A stretch of 64,000 nucleotides of DNA from Escherichia phage dhaeg. Under the pieces are notes generated by a model that was not told where the DNA came from, did not search any database, and worked only from the letters and a program-made list of their open reading frames with translations. Both the position numbers and the translations under genes were made by a program. Shown here piece by piece: positions 40,992-47,372 of this stretch (positions within the stretch are counted from its first letter, which is position 1; every line of letters starts with the position of its first letter). The stretch is from sequence record MN850609.1; one strand, given 5' to 3'.

Positions 40992-41224
40992 GTATTGCGA
41001 TTTATATTAAATCTGAGTCATGCGATTCTTATCTGTATTCCTATGACACTGGAACATCAGAAGAGAAAATCAAAGAAGATTTAGAAAGCGACTTGGATAT
41101 GTTCCGACCTATTTCTGATTATATGGTCCAAATATCTGATAGTGAAAGTCCGTCATTAGAAAATAGACTTGAAATTTTAATGAGCGACATTTTTAACCAA
41201 TCATGGAAACGAGACGATGAGTAA
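40988..41224 (+). CDS. small acidic protein
   Basis: 78 aa, ATGA-coupled. Confidence 0.55.
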   Translation: MSIAIYIKSESCDSYLYSYDTGTSEEKIKEDLESDLDMFRPISDYMVQISDSESPSLENRLEILMSDIFNQSWKRDDE

Positions 41225-41666
41225 AAAAGTTAAAGAACTATCCGCCGGTATTTTGTTTATGACCGCCGATAAAGAATTGGTTATGGGTCGTGTAACAGGT
41301 TCTCGTAATCCAGAGAATATGCGTCATAAATGGGACATCCCTAAAGGTCATGTCGAACCGGGTGAAGAGCCTATTCAAGCAGCAATGCGTGAAACTGAAG
41401 AAGAGATTGGATTCACTGCATACGATCCTGCGTTCCTGAAAGACCTAGGTGAGTTCAAATATTCTAGCAATAAGAATCTACACCTGTTCTTATATACTGT
41501 GCCTGTCGAACACGAGCAGTTCAAGAATTGCAAATGTACAGCTTACCACACGTTCCCTGATGGTCGTACGATTCCTGAATTTGATGCCTTCGCCTTGATT
41601 AAACGCCCGCAATGGGAATACGTCATGGGCCCGTCGATGTTTAAGGTTTTAGATTCGCTCTTTTGA
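41217..41666 (+). CDS. nudE: Nudix hydrolase NudE (e.1)
   Basis: 149 aa; Nudix box GHVEPGEEPIQAAMRETEEEIGF; immediately upstream of e as in T4. Confidence 0.9.
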   Translation: MSKKVKELSAGILFMTADKELVMGRVTGSRNPENMRHKWDIPKGHVEPGEEPIQAAMRETEEEIGFTAYDPAFLKDLGEFKYSSNKNLHLFLYTVPVEHEQFKNCKCTAYHTFPDGRTIPEFDAFALIKRPQWEYVMGPSMFKVLDSLF

Positions 41667-41696: not shown

Positions 41697-42185
41697 ATGG
41701 ATATTTTTGATATGTTACGTCAAGACGAAGGTCTTGATTTAAATCTTTATAAAGACACCGAAGGTTATTGGACTATTGGTATAGGCCAATTGATTACTAA
41801 GAACCCATCTAAAGATGTTGCTCGCGCTGAACTTGATAAGCTTATGGGTCGAGTTTGTAATGGTCGTATTACTATGGCTGAAGCCGAACAACTCTTTAAT
41901 CGTTCAGTAGAAAATGCCCGTAGAGCTATAACGCGCAATCCTAAATTGAAACCGGTTTATGATGTGCTAGACGAAGTTCGTCGTTGCGCATTGATTAATA
42001 TGGTCTTCCAAATGGGTGAAGCTGGTGTAGCGGGATTTACCAACTCTCTGCGTATGCTCCAACAAAAACGTTGGGATGACGCCGCAGTTAACCTGGCGCA
42101 GTCTCGTTGGTACAAGCAAACCCCTAATCGTGCCAAGCGTGTTATCGCCACCTTTAAAACAGGTACTTGGGCCGCTTATAGATAA
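41697..42185 (+). CDS. e: endolysin (T4 lysozyme)
   Basis: 162 aa; [28 protein letters not shown]...[52 protein letters not shown]. Confidence 0.97.
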
Positions 42186-42190
42186 AAGCA

Positions 42191-42219
42191 GTTTACATCT
42201 CCGGTAGGCATGATACTAT
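42191..42219 (+). promoter_or_regulatory. T4-type early promoter cassette (denV)
   Basis: GTTTAC-17-TACTAT; part of the 63-bp repeat 42185-42247. Confidence 0.75.
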
Positions 42220-42245
42220 AGACCTATCAACTACAGGAGATTAAA

Positions 42246-42662
42246 ATGACTCGTATCAACCTTACCTTAGTATCTGAATTGGCTGACCAACACTTAATGG
42301 CTGAATATCGTGAATTGCCACGTGTTTTCGGTGCAGTTCGAAAGCATGTTGCTAACGGTAAACGTGTTCGTGATTTTAAAATCAGCCCTACTTTTATCCT
42401 TGGTACAGGCCATGTCACATTCTTTTATGATAAGCTTGAATTTTTACGTAAGCGTCAAATCGAGCTTATAGCCGAATGTTTAAAACGTGGCTTTAATATC
42501 AAGGATACTACGGTCCAGGACATTAGTGATATTCCTCAGGAATTCCGTGGTGATTATGTTCTTCACGAAGCTTCTATCGCTATTTCACAAGCCCGTTTGG
42601 ATGAAAAAATTGCACAACGTCCTACCTGGTACAAACATTATGGTAAGGCGATTTATGCATAA
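42246..42662 (+). CDS. denV: endonuclease V (pyrimidine-dimer DNA glycosylase)
   Basis: 138 aa; [33 protein letters not shown] matches recalled T4 DenV (138 aa). Confidence 0.96.
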
Positions 42663-42800
42663 GGGAGCAACCTGGACCTCACAATTCTGTGAGGGACTCC
42701 CGCCAACCTGTAATAAGGTCGAGCCCAAGTGCGGTAATGGGTAAATGCAGAAAGGGACGAATTAATGTGCCAAGGAACGGCCCACAACTAAGAGACAACT

Positions 42801-43328
42801 ATGAAATTTTTAACCCCCATTTATCTAACCTTAATGCACGCCTTCGCTGAACGCGCCATTGAACGTTTAGACTCAGACCAATATACCTGGTATGAACCTA
42901 CTTCAAGAATGCAAGAGTTTGGTACTCTTCGACTTGACGGTGGGCGTCAAACAGGTAAAACAAGTGCCATTGCCCAGTTCGCAGCTGATTGGGTTTCCAA
43001 GGGTAATGATGTGATTGTTATGTCAAGTTCTTCGCACCGGTCACGCGAAATTTGTAATGTAATAAAAAGGGTTTCTAAGGCCCAACCACACCTTCAAGTA
43101 GAAGGTCCTGGGTTTGTTGTATATGATACCGTACGTTCATTTTTAGACGAAGATAACTTCCATAAGTATCGTGGTCTATCAGTTACTCGATTATTGATTA
43201 TTATCGAAGAGCCAATGCGCCTTCCAGCGATGGATAAGTTCTATGAAGCTTACCAGGTAATGATGAATAAATTTATGTGCCAGGGTTCTAAACCTCTGCC
43301 GCTGTTCTTTGTGATAGGAATGCAATGA
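42801..43328 (+). CDS. hypothetical small P-loop-like protein
   Basis: 175 aa; GGRQTGKTS (Walker-A-like) and LLIIIEEP (Walker-B-like). Confidence 0.55.
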   Translation: MKFLTPIYLTLMHAFAERAIERLDSDQYTWYEPTSRMQEFGTLRLDGGRQTGKTSAIAQFAADWVSKGNDVIVMSSSSHRSREICNVIKRVSKAQPHLQVEGPGFVVYDTVRSFLDEDNFHKYRGLSVTRLLIIIEEPMRLPAMDKFYEAYQVMMNKFMCQGSKPLPLFFVIGMQ

Positions 43329-44320: not shown

Positions 44321-44349
44321 GTTTACATCTCCTGTAGACGTGGTACTAT
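44321..44349 (+). promoter_or_regulatory. T4-type early promoter cassette (regB)
   Basis: GTTTAC-17-TACTAT. Spacer ATCTCCTGTAG (44327-44337) is perfectly complementary to CTACAGGAGAT (44361-44371), which contains the regB SD. Confidence 0.75.
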
Positions 44350-44377: not shown

Positions 44378-44836
44378 ATGTCAGAAATTAATTCAGAAGT
44401 ATTCATCCGCCGCAACAAATTACGTCGTCAGTTCGAAACCGAATTTCGTGAACTTAACGCGTCCATCAAAAAAGCCGCCATTAAGAGCGGTGTCCCAGCT
44501 TTCTTTATTAAGTACTCTAATCACTTGTTGGACCGTGCTATCCAACGTGAAATTGACGAAAAATATGTTTTCTCTTTGTTCAAGAAGCTCCATAATCATG
44601 TTAAAGAAATCCATGAATTTTTAATCCAGGAGCCTCTTCCTGACATAGAATCTGAAATTGTCCCAGGTAAAGTGTATCGTCCACTGCGTCTCGAGATTAC
44701 CGATAAAACCTTATGGTTGGGTATGACCGTAGATCGTAAACATCCTGATAAAGGATATTCATTAAAATGTCGTATGGCATTTGTTAATTCTAAACGTTTA
44801 GAAGGTAAAACCAGCACGAAAGTAATCTATCTTTAA
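44378..44836 (+). CDS. regB: RegB site-specific endoribonuclease
   Basis: 152 aa; ...EVFIRRNKLRR.FE.EFR...HLLDRAIQREIDE.YVF.LF... matches recalled T4 RegB (153 aa). Confidence 0.93.
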   Translation: MSEINSEVFIRRNKLRRQFETEFRELNASIKKAAIKSGVPAFFIKYSNHLLDRAIQREIDEKYVFSLFKKLHNHVKEIHEFLIQEPLPDIESEIVPGKVYRPLRLEITDKTLWLGMTVDRKHPDKGYSLKCRMAFVNSKRLEGKTSTKVIYL

Positions 44837-44848
44837 TAATGAGGTCTC

Positions 44849-45388
44849 ATGAAAAAAGTATTAGCCACTTTACTATTGACAGTTAGTATGTCTGCCTATA
44901 GCGTAGAGCCTACTTTCAGTAATGAACAACTCGATAATTTACATTATGCGTATGCTTTCGGTGAACAATACCAAAAGTCGGGAAAGTTCAAAGAAAACCC
45001 TAATCAAAAAGGATTAGGATATATAATGGCCGGATTATTATGGCAGGAATCATCTGCTGGAATTAATCAAGGTTTAAATAAAGATAAGCACCATGCTTAT
45101 GGCATGTTCCAAAATTACTTGCCTACGTTAAGAAGTCGTGTTCAACAGGTAGGTTGGAAGATGTCAGACAAAGAAATAATTCGCATGGTCCAAAAACGAC
45201 AGAACAGTGCCTCTTGGGCCTACATTGAGCTGTCTTATTGGATTGATGTTCACAAAGGTGACCTGAGAAAAGCGATTGCTTCTTATAATGCGGGCTGGAA
45301 TGTCAAAGCAGGCAGTAAATATGCTTCCGAAGTTCTAGAAAAGGCCAATTACCTAAAATCTAAAAAGATGTTTGAGGCGGTATATTAA
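44849..45388 (+). CDS. vs.1: secreted lytic transglycosylase (SLT family), Vs.1 position
   Basis: 179 aa; signal peptide; SLT motifs LWQESSAG, YGMFQ, SYNAG. Confidence 0.8.
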   Translation: MKKVLATLLLTVSMSAYSVEPTFSNEQLDNLHYAYAFGEQYQKSGKFKENPNQKGLGYIMAGLLWQESSAGINQGLNKDKHHAYGMFQNYLPTLRSRVQQVGWKMSDKEIIRMVQKRQNSASWAYIELSYWIDVHKGDLRKAIASYNAGWNVKAGSKYASEVLEKANYLKSKKMFEAVY

Positions 45389-45745
45389 ATGATTAAACAG
45401 ATGACTATAGCGCTTATGTTGATTGCTCCGGGAGTATTAGCATCACAGGTTGATGATACAAATAATTCAATTGTCGAGTATGCCACCCGTACAGCAAAAG
45501 ATTATTGTCATCCGAGTAATACTGAATGTGTTATTGAATTCAGTTCAAAAATAACAGCTGCTTTTAAAGATGGACAGAACGACGTCGAGCATCGCCGAAT
45601 GAAAGAGAAAACTCTTTCTAAAAGATACGAGCAACGTCTAAACGTTACTGAATGTGTTCCGTCTGATAAAAAGTACAAAGAAATGTGCGCGTCTATGGTA
45701 GACAGACTCGTTGACTCTTACAACCGAGGGCTAAACTCTAAATGA
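45389..45745 (+). CDS. signal-peptide protein at the position of T4 vs
   Basis: 118 aa; MIKQMTIALMLIAPGVLAS; positional inference only. Confidence 0.5.
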   Translation: MIKQMTIALMLIAPGVLASQVDDTNNSIVEYATRTAKDYCHPSNTECVIEFSSKITAAFKDGQNDVEHRRMKEKTLSKRYEQRLNVTECVPSDKKYKEMCASMVDRLVDSYNRGLNSK

Positions 45746-46221
45746 TTATTGATTATATTAAGGGCGATATCGTCGCCCTGTTTCTTCAAGGTAATATTAT
45801 TGCACACGGGTGCAACTGTTTTCATACTATGGGTTCAGGTGTGGCTGGTCAATTAGCAAAGGCCTATCCTAAAATATTAGAAATTGATAAGACCACTACT
45901 GAATATGGTTCTCGTGATAAATTGGGTGATATGTCTATTGTTTTTAAACATAAGCCTAATGGATTTGCAATGTGCTATAATTTATACACCCAATACGAAC
46001 CAGGCCCTAATCTTGATTACGGTGCTTTAGTAAACTGTATGATAGAATTAAATCTACAAGCAAATGACCTTTTGTTTAAACCAAGAATTTATATTCCTCG
46101 CATTGGTTGTGGTATTGCTGGTGGTGATTGGGACAAGGTTTCTAAATTAATCGACATGTTTACTCCTGATATTGATTTAATAGTGGTGGATTATGAAAGC
46201 ACATTACCCACATCCGTTTGA
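45742..46221 (+). CDS. macrodomain protein (TARG1/DarG-like ADP-ribose hydrolase fold), tk.4 position
   Basis: 159 aa; GDI...IAHGCNCFHTMGSGVAGQLAKAYP and IPRIGCGIAGGDW match macrodomain signature blocks. Confidence 0.65.
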   Translation: MIIDYIKGDIVALFLQGNIIAHGCNCFHTMGSGVAGQLAKAYPKILEIDKTTTEYGSRDKLGDMSIVFKHKPNGFAMCYNLYTQYEPGPNLDYGALVNCMIELNLQANDLLFKPRIYIPRIGCGIAGGDWDKVSKLIDMFTPDIDLIVVDYESTLPTSV

Positions 46222-46405
46222 CCCTAAAAATAAAGCTGAAATTATTCGGCGCTGGACTGAAACTCGAGTAACCAAATGCCCTATAAAAAGTCAGCATAAC
46301 ACCGATAAATGGTATATTGGTGAATATGTTGAATATACTTTTATAGATAAAAATAAACGTAAACAGCATGTAGAAGAATATTGCTTAAAGGTACAATGGT
46401 TATGA
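46193..46405 (+). CDS. hypothetical protein
   Basis: 70 aa, 29-nt overlap with the upstream gene. Confidence 0.45.
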   Translation: MKAHYPHPFDPKNKAEIIRRWTETRVTKCPIKSQHNTDKWYIGEYVEYTFIDKNKRKQHVEEYCLKVQWL

Positions 46406-46608
46406 GCCAAGCCCGAATTCTTAAAACAGCCAAATGTGAAAAATGCGAATGGCCGGTAATCGCAGCTTTATGCAACGATGAAATGAATTGCGAATATGAT
46501 TACTGGTGGTACTGTTCTAATAAAGGATGTTCTAATCATAAAGGTGAAGGTTTTCATTCTGGTTATTGCGAACATCCTAAATTTGTGCGATATGGTGAAC
46601 CTAAATGA
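46402..46608 (+). CDS. small Cys-rich (putative Zn-binding) protein
   Basis: 68 aa from the ATGA junction; CEKCEW...CNDEMNC...CSNKGCSNH...C. Confidence 0.55.
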   Translation: MSQARILKTAKCEKCEWPVIAALCNDEMNCEYDYWWYCSNKGCSNHKGEGFHSGYCEHPKFVRYGEPK

Positions 46609-46790
46609 GTTTGAGTAAAGAACAGAAAGACAAATTGTTTGAGCTTATCCATGAGCTTTTGGATGAACATGCCGAAGCAAACGCTTTTTACGATGAATAT
46701 GGCCCGATAGATGCCGACCATCAGGAAGAATTTGCTAATCGATTTGATGAGAAAGAAAACGAATTAATTGCTTATGTGAATAGTCTTTAA
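46605..46790 (+). CDS. small acidic protein
   Basis: 61 aa, ATGA-coupled. Confidence 0.55.
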   Translation: MSLSKEQKDKLFELIHELLDEHAEANAFYDEYGPIDADHQEEFANRFDEKENELIAYVNSL

Positions 46791-46799
46791 GAAGGTAAT

Positions 46800-47372
46800 A
46801 TGGCTCAACTTTATTTTCACTATGCGGCAATGAACTCAGGTAAGACAGCTTCATTGCTAACGGCGGCTCATAACTACAAAGAACGTGGTATGGGCGTGCT
46901 CCTTTTAAAGCCTGCGATAGACAATAGAGAATCAAGCCATACCATTTCGTCTCGTATAGGGATTAGTCAAGAGGCTAATGCAGTGACTCCGGATATGGAC
47001 CTATACGAGTTCTATCGTTGGGCTGAATCTCAAAAAGATATCCACTGTGTGTTTGTGGATGAAGCACAGTTCTTAGAACCTGCACAGATAAAACAACTGG
47101 CAAAGATAGTAGACAATTATAATGTTCCAGTTATGTGTTATGGACTAAGAACTGATTTTCAGGGTAAACTGTTTCCTGGTTCTGCCGAATTACTCGCTAC
47201 GGCAGATAAACTCGTTGAGTACAAAGGTGTGTGCCATTGTGGCCGTAAAGCTACTATGACTGCTAGGGTCCAAGATGGTATCGCAATTAAGGACGGAGCC
47301 CAAGTTTCTATAGGTGGCAACGATTCTTACGTGTCATTGTGCAGGAAGCACTGGATAGAAATAACGAGTTGA
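46800..47372 (+). CDS. tk: thymidine kinase
   Basis: 190 aa; ...YAAMN.GK.ASLL.AAHNYKERGM.VL.LKPAIDNR...HCVFVDEAQF...VCHCG.KA.MTAR...SLCRKHW. Confidence 0.96.
   Translation: MAQLYFHYAAMNSGKTASLLTAAHNYKERGMGVLLLKPAIDNRESSHTISSRIGISQEANAVTPDMDLYEFYRWAESQKDIHCVFVDEAQFLEPAQIKQLAKIVDNYNVPVMCYGLRTDFQGKLFPGSAELLATADKLVEYKGVCHCGRKATMTARVQDGIAIKDGAQVSIGGNDSYVSLCRKHWIEITS

What the first reader, a model, noticed from the sequence alone, without database searches (positions are those of the whole stretch)
45742..46221. TARG1/DarG-like macrodomain protein in the tk-vs accessory cluster
- Sequence blocks GDI...IAHGCNCFHTMGSGVAGQLAKAYP and IPRIGCGIAGGDW match the macrodomain nucleotide-binding loops. The second block is close to the RIGCGL.. 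motif of TARG1/DarG-type enzymes.
- DarG-type macrodomains remove ADP-ribose from thymidine in DNA, the mark written by the DarT toxin of the DarTG anti-phage system.
- A phage copy could therefore be a counter-defence. It could alternatively erase host or phage (Alt/ModA/ModB) protein or RNA ADP-ribosylation.
Basis: partly seen in the sequence, partly recalled or inferred. Interest (0 to 1): 0.5.

Follow-up and report, generated by a model that had tools for sequence, protein, structure and literature searches.

The report
Phage Tk.4/AdfM macrodomain, anti-DarTG2 factor

Summary

The window is a JS98-like Dhakavirus, a T4-type phage. The gene is tk.4:
- 99% identical to JS98 Tk.4
- 57% identical to T4 Tk.4
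- same regB-vs.1-vs-tk.4-tk.3-...-tk order

A November 2025 preprint (HIDEN-SEQ) found T4 tk.4 to be the only gene conditionally essential on a DarTG2 host. A clean knockout sensitised T4, and the gene was renamed adfM. The counter-defence idea is therefore supported by orthology, and it is already known.

My addition concerns the active site. The catalytic Lys of DarG (K80) and TARG1 (K84) is an invariant Gln (Q84) here, and TARG1 Asp125 is Ala. That matches Streptomyces SCO6735, a Gln-dependent enzyme that hydrolyses thymidine-linked ADP-ribose on DNA.

PhiKZ gp104, also named AdfM, is a different, Lys-type DarG-like lineage.

Enzymatic removal of ADP-ribose from DNA is inferred, not shown, for the Tk.4 lineage. 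Interest is low.

The parts
45742..46221 (+). tk.4 / adfM coding sequence: a 159-aa single-domain macrodomain protein
45805..45846 (+). Loop-1 block HGCNCFHTMGSGVA (residues 22-35), which corresponds to the ADP-ribose-binding loop 1 of macrodomains. It includes the invariant residues H22, G23, N25, C26, G33 and A35.
   Evidence: Invariant columns in the 106-sequence family alignment A1. N25 aligns with PhiKZ gp104 N23, whose N23A mutant has reduced activity.
45979..45993 (+). Catalytic-loop block NLYTQ (residues 80-84). Q84 occupies the position of TARG1 K84, DarG K80 and SCO6735 Q85.
   Evidence: Profile-to-TARG1 alignment. Multiple alignments A2 and A3. N80, Y82 and Q84 are invariant in A1. 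SCO6735 Q85A is inactive (PMC9411070).
46096..46131 (+). Loop-2 block PRIGCGIAGGDW (residues 119-130), which corresponds to the diphosphate-binding loop. A126 sits at the position of TARG1 D125.
   Evidence: Alignments to SCO6735 PRIGCGLAGGTW, BT1257 PRIGCGLAGGKW and TARG1 PRIGCGLDRLQW.
45742..45745 (+). ATGA overlap of the vs stop codon with the tk.4 start codon, suggesting translational coupling and co-transcription with vs
   Evidence: Sequence and ORF coordinates. T4, T6 and JS98 show the same 4-nt overlap.
44322..44349 (+). Sigma-70/T4-early-like promoter (GTTTACA...TG..TACTAT) upstream of regB. It is the likeliest start of the regB-vs.1-vs-tk.4-...-tk transcription unit.
   Evidence: Consensus scan, 9/12 matches with a TG extension, and sequence. 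This is weak evidence: the number of promoter-like sites in the region is not above the shuffled expectation.
46193..46405 (+). Context gene: the tk.3 homolog (DUF7202). Its start overlaps the last 29 nt of tk.4.
   Evidence: ORF list. Pfam DUF7202 E=2.5e-37. JS98 annotation.
45389..45745 (+). Context gene: vs, the valyl-tRNA synthetase modifier, immediately upstream
   Evidence: PHROG 1256 E=4e-34. JS98 and T4 annotation.

Best explanation
The ORF is the Dhakavirus ortholog of T4 tk.4, recently renamed adfM (anti-DarT factor macrodomain). It is a stand-alone, antitoxin-like macrodomain ADP-ribosyl glycohydrolase, probably made early in infection from the regB-vs-tk transcription unit.

Proposed mechanism:
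1. An infected host carries the DarTG2 toxin-antitoxin defence.
2. Freed DarT2 ADP-ribosylates thymidines in single-stranded (TNTC) DNA of the replicating phage.
3. Tk.4 binds the ADP-ribose moiety in its macrodomain cleft and hydrolyses the thymine-ribose bond. This restores normal DNA so that replication continues.

The catalytic position carries an invariant Gln (Q84), not the Lys of DarG and TARG1. The chemistry is therefore most likely the SCO6735-type, Gln-dependent, water-mediated mechanism rather than the Lys-dependent one.

What is shown here: the fold, the class, orthology, and conservation of the active-site residues. What is shown elsewhere: the anti-DarTG2 phenotype of T4 tk.4. 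What is inferred: that this allele has the same phenotype, and that protection is enzymatic de-ADP-ribosylation of DNA.
For: - Real ORF with the macro motifs.
- Pfam Macro above the gathering threshold.
- High-confidence model, pLDDT 94.7.
- Orthology with T4: 57% identity over the full length with no gaps, and identical gene order regB-vs.1-vs-tk.4-tk.3-...-tk in T4, T6 and JS98.
- T4 tk.4 was the only significant hit depleted on a DarTG2 host, and a clean knockout sensitised T4 to DarTG2 (10.1101/2025.11.20.689424).
- Q84 aligns with SCO6735 Q85, TARG1 K84 and DarG K80 and is invariant in 106 homologs.
- SCO6735 hydrolyses thymidine-linked ADP-ribose on DNA, protects against DarT, and is dead as Q85A (PMC9411070).
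- An unrelated phage macrodomain, PhiKZ gp104, removes DarT2 marks from DNA in vitro. This shows that the strategy exists in phages (PMC13309987).
- The only defence-library model hit is DarG.
Against: - No biochemical assay exists for any Tk.4-type protein. The preprint itself only says enzymatic removal 'seems likely'.
- The phenotype was measured for T4, not for this 57%-identical allele. T4's loop 2 differs (PRIGAGIGKGNW against PRIGCGIAGGDW).
- The canonical catalytic residues of DarG and TARG1 are absent.
- The mobile loop after Q84 is short, unlike SCO6735's DNA-binding loop with Lys89 and Lys94.
- Catalytically dead SCO6735, DarG and TARG1 still inhibit DarT by interaction, so protection need not be catalytic.
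- The homolog family is found in about 2,770 phage records from many hosts. This may indicate a more general role than defeating one defence system.
Confidence: 0.72

Rival explanations
1. Tk.4 protects against DarTG2 mainly without catalysis. It would bind and block DarT2, or shield ADP-ribosylated sites, as a stoichiometric antitoxin mimic.
For: Catalytically inactive SCO6735 Q85A, DarG K80A and TARG1 K84A all still inhibit DarT in vitro, with SCO6735 the strongest (PMC9411070). Phage ICP1 AdfB neutralises DarT by direct binding (PMC11481870). The classical catalytic Lys is missing here.
Against: The putative active-site residues H22, N25, N80, Q84 and the Gly-rich loops are invariant or nearly so across 106 homologs down to 38% identity, which argues for a conserved enzymatic pocket. 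Homologs occur in phages of hosts with very different DarT proteins. DarG's dedicated DarT-binding C-terminal domain is absent.
Confidence: 0.1
2. The primary substrate is a small soluble ADP-ribose derivative rather than DNA. Candidates are ADP-ribose-1''-phosphate (a Poa1p-like phosphatase, as the legacy 'A1pp phosphatase' annotation implies), O-acetyl-ADP-ribose, or an ADP-ribose-derived immune signal. The DarTG2 phenotype would then be secondary.
Against: The labels derive from the old domain name, not from assays. Poa1p has Ser where this family has the invariant Gln84, Cys where it has Asn80, Phe152 where it has Ala126, and a roughly 20-residue insertion absent here. From general knowledge, the T4 RNA-repair route (Pnkp/Rnl1) does not go through the Tpt1/KptA step that makes ADP-ribose-1''-phosphate. 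The only phenotype on record for the T4 ortholog is specific to DarTG2.
Confidence: 0.1
3. It erases protein or RNA ADP-ribosylation. Either it tunes the phage's own Alt/ModA/ModB marks, or it reverses host RNA-directed ADP-ribosyltransferases such as CmdT.
For: SCO6735 and TARG1 also remove Glu-linked protein mono-ADP-ribose. T4-type phages encode three ADP-ribosyltransferases.
Against: Alt, ModA and ModB modify arginine. From general knowledge, that linkage is cleaved by ARH/DraG-type enzymes, not by TARG1-class macrodomains. Wild-type T4, which carries tk.4, is strongly restricted by CmdTAC (PMC11618068), so Tk.4 does not neutralise CmdT marks. SCO6735 was inactive on 2'-OH-linked RNA ADP-ribosylation (PMC11833690). 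tk.4 is not adjacent to alt or mod genes.
Confidence: 0.05

Closest known systems
T4 Tk.4 = AdfM (anti-DarT factor macrodomain; bioRxiv 10.1101/2025.11.20.689424)
   Same: Ortholog. It is 57% identical over the full length and sits in the same position between vs and tk.3. It has the same single-domain size (155 against 159 aa) and the same NLYTQ catalytic loop and HGCNCFHTMGSGVAGQL block.
   Different: Loop 2 differs (T4 PRIGAGIGKGNW against PRIGCGIAGGDW here); the window allele is closer to the family consensus. The window protein has four extra C-terminal residues, and its overlap with tk.3 is 29 nt, not 4 nt. The phenotype has not been tested for this allele.
Streptomyces coelicolor SCO6735 (PDB 5E3B) and Bacteroides BT1257 (2AFC/2FG1)
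   Same: Orphan macrodomains of the ALC1/TARG1 class, not linked to DarT. They have Gln at the catalytic position, Asn four residues before it, and a PRIGCG[LI]AGGxW loop 2 with no Asp. SCO6735 hydrolyses T-linked ADP-ribose on DNA and needs Gln85.
   Different: Only 26-29% identical. SCO6735 has a mobile loop about 5-6 residues longer, carrying Lys89 and Lys94, and a GGWGKG loop 1, whereas Tk.4 has HTMGSG. Its Val25 position is Gly23 here. SCO6735 is a cellular, DNA-damage-induced gene, not a phage gene.
DarG antitoxin macrodomain of DarTG2 (PDB 5M3I, 5M31, 7OMU)
   Different: The catalytic Lys80 is replaced by Gln. Loop 2 is PPLGxGNGGL in DarG. There is no C-terminal DarT-binding domain and no adjacent darT. 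The NCBIfam score is 28 bits against a cut-off of 250.
PhiKZ gp104, also named AdfM (Cell Rep 2026, PMC13309987)
   Same: A phage-encoded stand-alone macrodomain that counters DarTG2. For this protein, removal of DarT2 marks from DNA was shown in vitro.
   Different: A different lineage. gp104 is DarG-like (E=9e-25 to 5M3I; PADLOC DarG 133 bits) with the FPTK catalytic Lys. It is barely similar to the window protein (BLASTP E=8e-4 over 33 residues). gp104 is imported into the phage nucleus, which T4-type phages lack.
Human TARG1 / C6orf130 (PDB 4J5R/4J5S)
   Same: Top Foldseek hit (E=8e-10, TM 0.72-0.82). It shares the PRIGCG motif.
   Different: The TARG1 catalytic dyad Lys84/Asp125 corresponds to Gln84/Ala126 here. 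Identity is 20-24%.
T4 AdfN (gene 30.3, NADAR; PMC11825919)
   Same: Same logic: an orphan antitoxin-like ADP-ribosyl glycohydrolase in T-even phages that detoxifies DarT-modified phage DNA.
   Different: An unrelated fold (NADAR). It acts on guanine marks written by DarT1, not on thymine marks by DarT2. It is encoded elsewhere in the genome, outside this window.

Membership tests
Macro domain superfamily (Pfam PF01661) | Profile HMM score above the curated gathering threshold | tested here: met
   33.7 bits against a cut-off of 22, E=4e-8, covering profile positions 2-117 of 118.
Macro domain superfamily (Pfam PF01661) | Three-layer alpha/beta/alpha macro fold with a mixed central sheet | tested here: met
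ALC1-like / TARG1-type macrodomain class | Closest relatives are TARG1, DarG, Poa1p and SCO6735/BT1257 rather than MacroD, PARG or viral macrodomains | tested here: met
TARG1 | Catalytic dyad Lys84 / Asp125 | tested here: not met
   Q84 and A126 occupy these positions. Q84 is invariant in the family.
DarG antitoxin (DarTG2) | Catalytic Lys80 in the FPTK motif | tested here: not met
   The alignment shows NLYTQ against NFPTK.
DarG antitoxin (DarTG2) | C-terminal DarT-binding domain, giving a full-length protein of about 330-340 aa | tested here: not met
   The protein is 159 aa. It matches only positions 1-142 of the 338-position NCBIfam model, at 28.3 bits against a cut-off of 250, and positions 2-144 of 329 in PADLOC.
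DarG antitoxin (DarTG2) | Encoded in an operon with the darT toxin gene | tested here: not met
   The neighbours are vs and tk.3. A bacterial homolog from Pelagimonas is also an orphan with no DarT nearby.
DarG antitoxin (DarTG2) | Hydrolysis of thymidine-linked ADP-ribose on ssDNA | not testable with these tools
   This needs a biochemical assay. It has been shown for DarG, SCO6735, TARG1 and PhiKZ gp104, but not for any Tk.4-type protein.
SCO6735-like Gln-type macrodomains | Gln at the catalytic position (SCO6735 Gln85) and a GCG[LI]AGGxW loop 2 lacking Asp | tested here: met
   Q84 aligns with Q85. PRIGCGIAGGDW aligns with PRIGCGLAGGTW.
SCO6735-like Gln-type macrodomains | Extended mobile loop with Lys89 and Lys94, and Val25 as a second catalytic residue | tested here: not met
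   The loop after Q84 is about 6 residues shorter and lacks the lysines. The Val25 position is the invariant Gly23.
T4 Tk.4 / AdfM orthologous group | Full-length sequence similarity and conserved position between vs and tk.3 | tested here: met
   57% identity with no gaps to T4 and 99% to JS98 Tk.4. Synteny holds in T4, T6 and JS98.
T4 Tk.4 / AdfM orthologous group | Needed for growth on DarTG2-expressing hosts | not testable with these tools
   Shown for T4 only.
Poa1p ADP-ribose-1''-phosphate phosphatase | Poa1p active-site residues His23, Ser30 and Phe152 (the residues mutated in PDB 6LFS, 6LFT and 6LFU), plus the Poa1p-specific insertion | tested here: inconclusive
   His is conserved (H22). 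Ser30 corresponds to T29, and Phe152 to A126. Poa1p has Ser at the Q84 position and a roughly 20-residue insertion that is absent here. The Poa1p structure paper was not in the library, so the roles of these residues could not be checked.

The most novel reading that the evidence does not exclude
T4-type phages may have recruited a SCO6735-like, Gln-dependent macrodomain independently of the Lys-type DarG-like macrodomain used by PhiKZ-type phages. Two non-orthologous 'AdfM' lineages would then have converged on DarT2. The Gln-type enzyme might have a broader substrate range, for example T-ADPr-DNA plus Glu-linked protein ADP-ribose as in SCO6735. That could explain its presence in about 2,770 phage genomes of very different hosts. 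It could also serve as a general eraser against several ADP-ribose-based defences, not only DarTG2.
Probability: 0.25. Interest if true: 0.45.

Novelty: already known. Interest (0 to 1): 0.22.

Why it matters
The gene is one half of the T-even phages' two-enzyme answer to DarTG defence: AdfN (NADAR) against guanine marks and Tk.4/AdfM (macrodomain) against thymine marks. Knowing that this Dhakavirus carries an intact, consensus-like allele helps predict its host range on DarTG2-positive E. coli, which is relevant for therapeutic phage choice.

The observation that goes beyond the literature I could read is that the Tk.4 lineage lacks the DarG/TARG1 catalytic lysine and carries an invariant Gln as in SCO6735. 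Mechanistic and mutational work should therefore target Q84, N80, N25 and H22 rather than a lysine. Also, the name AdfM currently covers two non-orthologous proteins.

Tried and rejected
1. Direct phmmer of the C-terminal two thirds against PDB, to see the catalytic region aligned to SCO6735 and DarG. It gave only short local alignments around loop 2. I worked around this by recovering the PDB sequences from alignments printed for closer queries (PhiKZ gp104; Streptomyces phage Annadreamy gp152; Poa1p) and aligning them myself.

2. Sigma-70 promoter and terminator scan of 42.5-48 kb. The counts are not above the shuffled expectation (13 against 15.0; 6 against 3.9). Only the regB-proximal early-like promoter is mentioned, and as weak evidence.

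3. Looked for a link to DarT in cellular homologs. The one bacterial homolog examined (Pelagimonas, 41% identical) sits among housekeeping-type genes with no DarT.

4. Searched for the Poa1p structure paper to learn its catalytic residues. It is not in the library.

5. Considered filing the protein as a DarG family member. Rejected, because three defining features fail: the Lys, the C-terminal domain and the darT operon.

6. Considered a role against CmdTAC. Rejected, because wild-type T4 is sensitive to CmdTAC.

Full report
**Observation.** The window has an ATG-initiated ORF at 45742..46221 on the + strand encoding 159 aa (sequence read).
- KGDIVALFLQGNIIAHGCNCFHTMGSGVAGQLAKAYP, residues 7-43
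- IPRIGCGIAGGDW, residues 118-130

The start codon overlaps the stop codon of the upstream gene in an ATGA (45742-45745). The last 29 nt overlap the start of the next ORF (46193). All genes from 44378 to 47372 lie on the same strand and are tightly packed.

**Is it a macrodomain?** Yes.
- Pfam Macro (PF01661) scores 33.7 bits against a gathering cut-off of 22, E=4e-8, over almost the whole profile.
- PHROG 335, labelled 'phosphatase', matches at 7e-71.
- Against PDB sequences, the single sequence hits BT1257 (2e-10), yeast Poa1p (5e-10), SCO6735 (1e-7), the M. tuberculosis DarG macrodomain (2.7e-5) and TARG1 (3e-3).
- A profile of 106 homologs raises these to 3e-19, 7e-15, 2e-15, 8e-13 and 2e-16 respectively.
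- An AlphaFold2 model built on that alignment is confident: mean pLDDT 94.7, pTM 0.89.
- Foldseek puts TARG1, Poa1p, BT1257 and DarG on top.

**What genome and what gene.** The region is 97.5% identical in DNA to Escherichia phage JS98 (Dhakavirus, Tevenvirinae), and similar DNA occurs in 548 phage records. The protein is 99% identical (157/159) to JS98 Tk.4. It is 57% identical, with no gaps, to T4 Tk.4 and 55% identical to T6 Tk.4.

The gene order regB - vs.1 - vs - tk.4 - tk.3 - ... - tk is the same in the window, JS98, T4 and T6. GenBank and RefSeq call it 'Tk.4; contains A1pp phosphatase motif', 'phosphatase', 'macro domain protein' or 'Poa1p-like family protein'.

Homologs detectable by tblastn occur in 2,773 of 50,697 phage records. 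Most are large myoviruses of Escherichia, Klebsiella, Salmonella, Pseudomonas, Vibrio, Acinetobacter and Aeromonas. This fits the survey of Iyer, Burroughs and Aravind, which found Macro domains in 41% of myoviruses (PMC9503650).

**What is already known about it.** A bioRxiv preprint of 20 November 2025 (HIDEN-SEQ, 10.1101/2025.11.20.689424) used a T4 transposon library on an E. coli host expressing DarTG2.
- tk.4 was the single significant hit.
- A clean tk.4 knockout sensitised T4 to DarTG2.
- The authors noted structural similarity to the M. tuberculosis DarG macrodomain and renamed the gene adfM.
- They stated that enzymatic removal of ADP-ribose from DNA 'seems likely'. No biochemistry was reported.

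The companion factor against DarTG1 is AdfN, the T4 30.3 NADAR protein (PMC11825919).

Independently, a Cell Reports 2026 paper named PhiKZ gp104 'AdfM'. It showed in vitro that gp104 removes DarT2-written ADP-ribose from a TNTC oligonucleotide, with an N23A mutant impaired (PMC13309987).

**What I can add: the active site.** In the 106-sequence family alignment, the invariant positions are H22, G23, N25, C26, G33, A35, N80, Y82, Q84, P119 and W130.

The profile-to-TARG1 alignment places Q84 exactly on TARG1 Lys84, and A126 on TARG1 Asp125. I recovered the sequences of SCO6735, BT1257, TARG1, two DarG macrodomains and Poa1p from printed PDB alignments and aligned them with the window, T4/T6 and PhiKZ proteins.

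| Protein | Catalytic loop | Loop 2 |
|---|---|---|
| Window and T4/T6 Tk.4 | NLYTQ | PRIGCGIAGGDW (window); PRIGAGIGKGNW (T4/T6) |
| SCO6735 | NMIGQ | PRIGCGLAGGTW |
| BT1257 | NMIGQ | PRIGCGLAGGKW |
| TARG1 | YLITK | PRIGCGLDRLQW |
| DarG | NFPTK | PPLGxGNGGL |
| PhiKZ gp104 | MFPTK | PPLGCANGGL |
| Poa1p | CLFTS | PQINSGIFGVPW |

The SCO6735 paper states that Gln85 is the equivalent of TARG1 Lys84 and DarG Lys80. It also reports that Q85A abolishes activity, and that SCO6735 hydrolyses thymidine-linked ADP-ribose on DNA and protects against DarT (PMC9411070).

The Tk.4 lineage is therefore a Gln-type enzyme like SCO6735, not a Lys-type enzyme like DarG or TARG1. It is not simply an SCO6735 copy, however. 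Its loop after Gln84 is short, as in TARG1 and DarG. It lacks SCO6735's Lys89 and Lys94. Its loop 1 (HTMGSG) resembles TARG1 and DarG (MGAG/MGKG) more than SCO6735 (GGWGKG).

**Two different 'AdfM' proteins.** PhiKZ gp104 matches the Mtb DarG macrodomain at E=9e-25 and the PADLOC DarG model at 133 bits, and it retains the catalytic Lys. The window protein scores only 28.5 bits on the PADLOC DarG model. It is barely alignable with gp104 (BLASTP E=8e-4 over 33 residues). The shared name hides two non-orthologous lineages.

**Membership.** The protein is a macrodomain of the ALC1/TARG1 class and an ortholog of T4 Tk.4/AdfM. It is not a DarG family member in the strict sense, for three reasons:
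- The catalytic Lys is absent.
- It lacks the C-terminal DarT-binding domain (159 aa; NCBIfam antitoxin_DarG 28 bits against a cut-off of 250, matching only model positions 1-142 of 338).
- There is no darT next to it.

A bacterial homolog (Pelagimonas phthalicica, 41% identical) is likewise an orphan among housekeeping-type genes.

**Mechanism proposed.** The gene sits in a tightly coupled, same-strand block. It probably starts at a T4-early-like promoter in front of regB (GTTTACA-N-TG-TACTAT, 44322-44349). This evidence is weak, because promoter-like sites are not enriched over shuffles.

Made early, the protein would scan replicating phage ssDNA, bind ADP-ribose attached to thymine by host DarT2, and hydrolyse the bond through a Gln84-dependent, water-mediated mechanism as proposed for SCO6735. 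Replication could then proceed.

- Shown here: fold, class, orthology, and conservation of active-site residues.
- Shown elsewhere: the T4 phenotype.
- Inferred: that this allele has the same phenotype, and that protection is enzymatic and acts on DNA.

**Rivals.**
1. Non-catalytic inhibition of DarT2. This is plausible because dead SCO6735, DarG and TARG1 mutants still inhibit DarT and ICP1 AdfB acts by binding. The invariance of pocket residues argues for catalysis.
2. A small-molecule substrate, such as ADP-ribose-1''-phosphate or OAADPr. This is suggested by the legacy annotation and the similarity to Poa1p. But Poa1p differs at the invariant Asn80, Gln84 and Ala126 positions and carries an insertion, and the only known phenotype is DarTG2-specific.
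3. Erasing Alt/ModA/ModB or CmdT marks. This is unlikely. Alt, ModA and ModB modify arginine, a linkage that, from general knowledge, TARG1-class macrodomains do not cleave. Wild-type T4, which carries tk.4, is still strongly restricted by CmdTAC.

**Verdict.** The feature is an ordinary, long-annotated, widely conserved T4-family gene whose function was reported in late 2025. Novelty: already known. The residual interest lies in the Gln-type active site, the absence of any biochemistry for this lineage, and the naming collision with PhiKZ gp104.

Noticed in passing
window 41217..41666 (+): A 149-aa Nudix hydrolase, the nudE/e.1 homolog, with a clear Nudix box (GHVEPGEEPIQAAMRETEEEIGF). It lies 4 kb upstream of tk.4, next to the lysozyme gene e (41697..42185) and denV (42246..42662). 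T4 NudE is annotated as active on ADP-ribose, so it could dispose of the ADP-ribose released by Tk.4. No linkage was tested.
   Followed up: partly
window 46023..46048 (+), inside tk.4: A MotA-box-like middle-promoter match (TGCTTTA-N12-TAGAAT) lies within the tk.4 coding sequence and points towards tk.3...tk. The pattern occurs 8 times in the window against 1.75 expected from shuffles. Five of the eight are on the + strand.
   Followed up: partly
window 45761..45779 (+): A G+C-rich 8-bp-stem hairpin (AGGGCGAT-ATC-GTCGCCCT) lies 19 nt downstream of the tk.4 start codon, within codons 7-13 (KGDIVAL). The terminator scan reported it. It could be an mRNA structure or a by-product of the conserved peptide. 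Not examined in other phages.
   Followed up: no
window 41697..43328 compared with JS98 (L005 20502..23636): Gene content differs from JS98 between e and vs.8. JS98 has ipIII, orf114, denV and an internal-head-protein gene there. In the window, e is followed directly by denV and then by a 175-aa ORF (42801..43328, PHROG 1488). The internal-protein cassette appears to be variable or absent here.
   Followed up: no
literature; PhiKZ gp104 sequence from PMC13309987 compared with window 45742..46221: Two non-orthologous phage macrodomains carry the same new name, AdfM. T4 Tk.4 is Gln-type and SCO6735-like. PhiKZ gp104 is Lys-type and DarG-like (E=9e-25 to PDB 5M3I). Pairwise similarity between them is marginal.
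   Followed up: yes
L006 6001..6459 (Pelagimonas phthalicica chromosome): A bacterial homolog, 41% identical, is an orphan macrodomain gene flanked by peptidase M23, tryptophan halogenase and peptidase U32 genes. No DarT or phage genes lie within 6 kb.
   Followed up: partly
L002 1504..1971 (Streptomyces phage Annadreamy gp152): This phage protein, annotated as hypothetical, is a very close relative of SCO6735 (E=2.6e-47 to PDB 5E3B) with the NMIAQ catalytic loop. Bona fide SCO6735-type macrodomains therefore also occur in actinophages. It sits next to an rIIA-like gene.
   Followed up: partly
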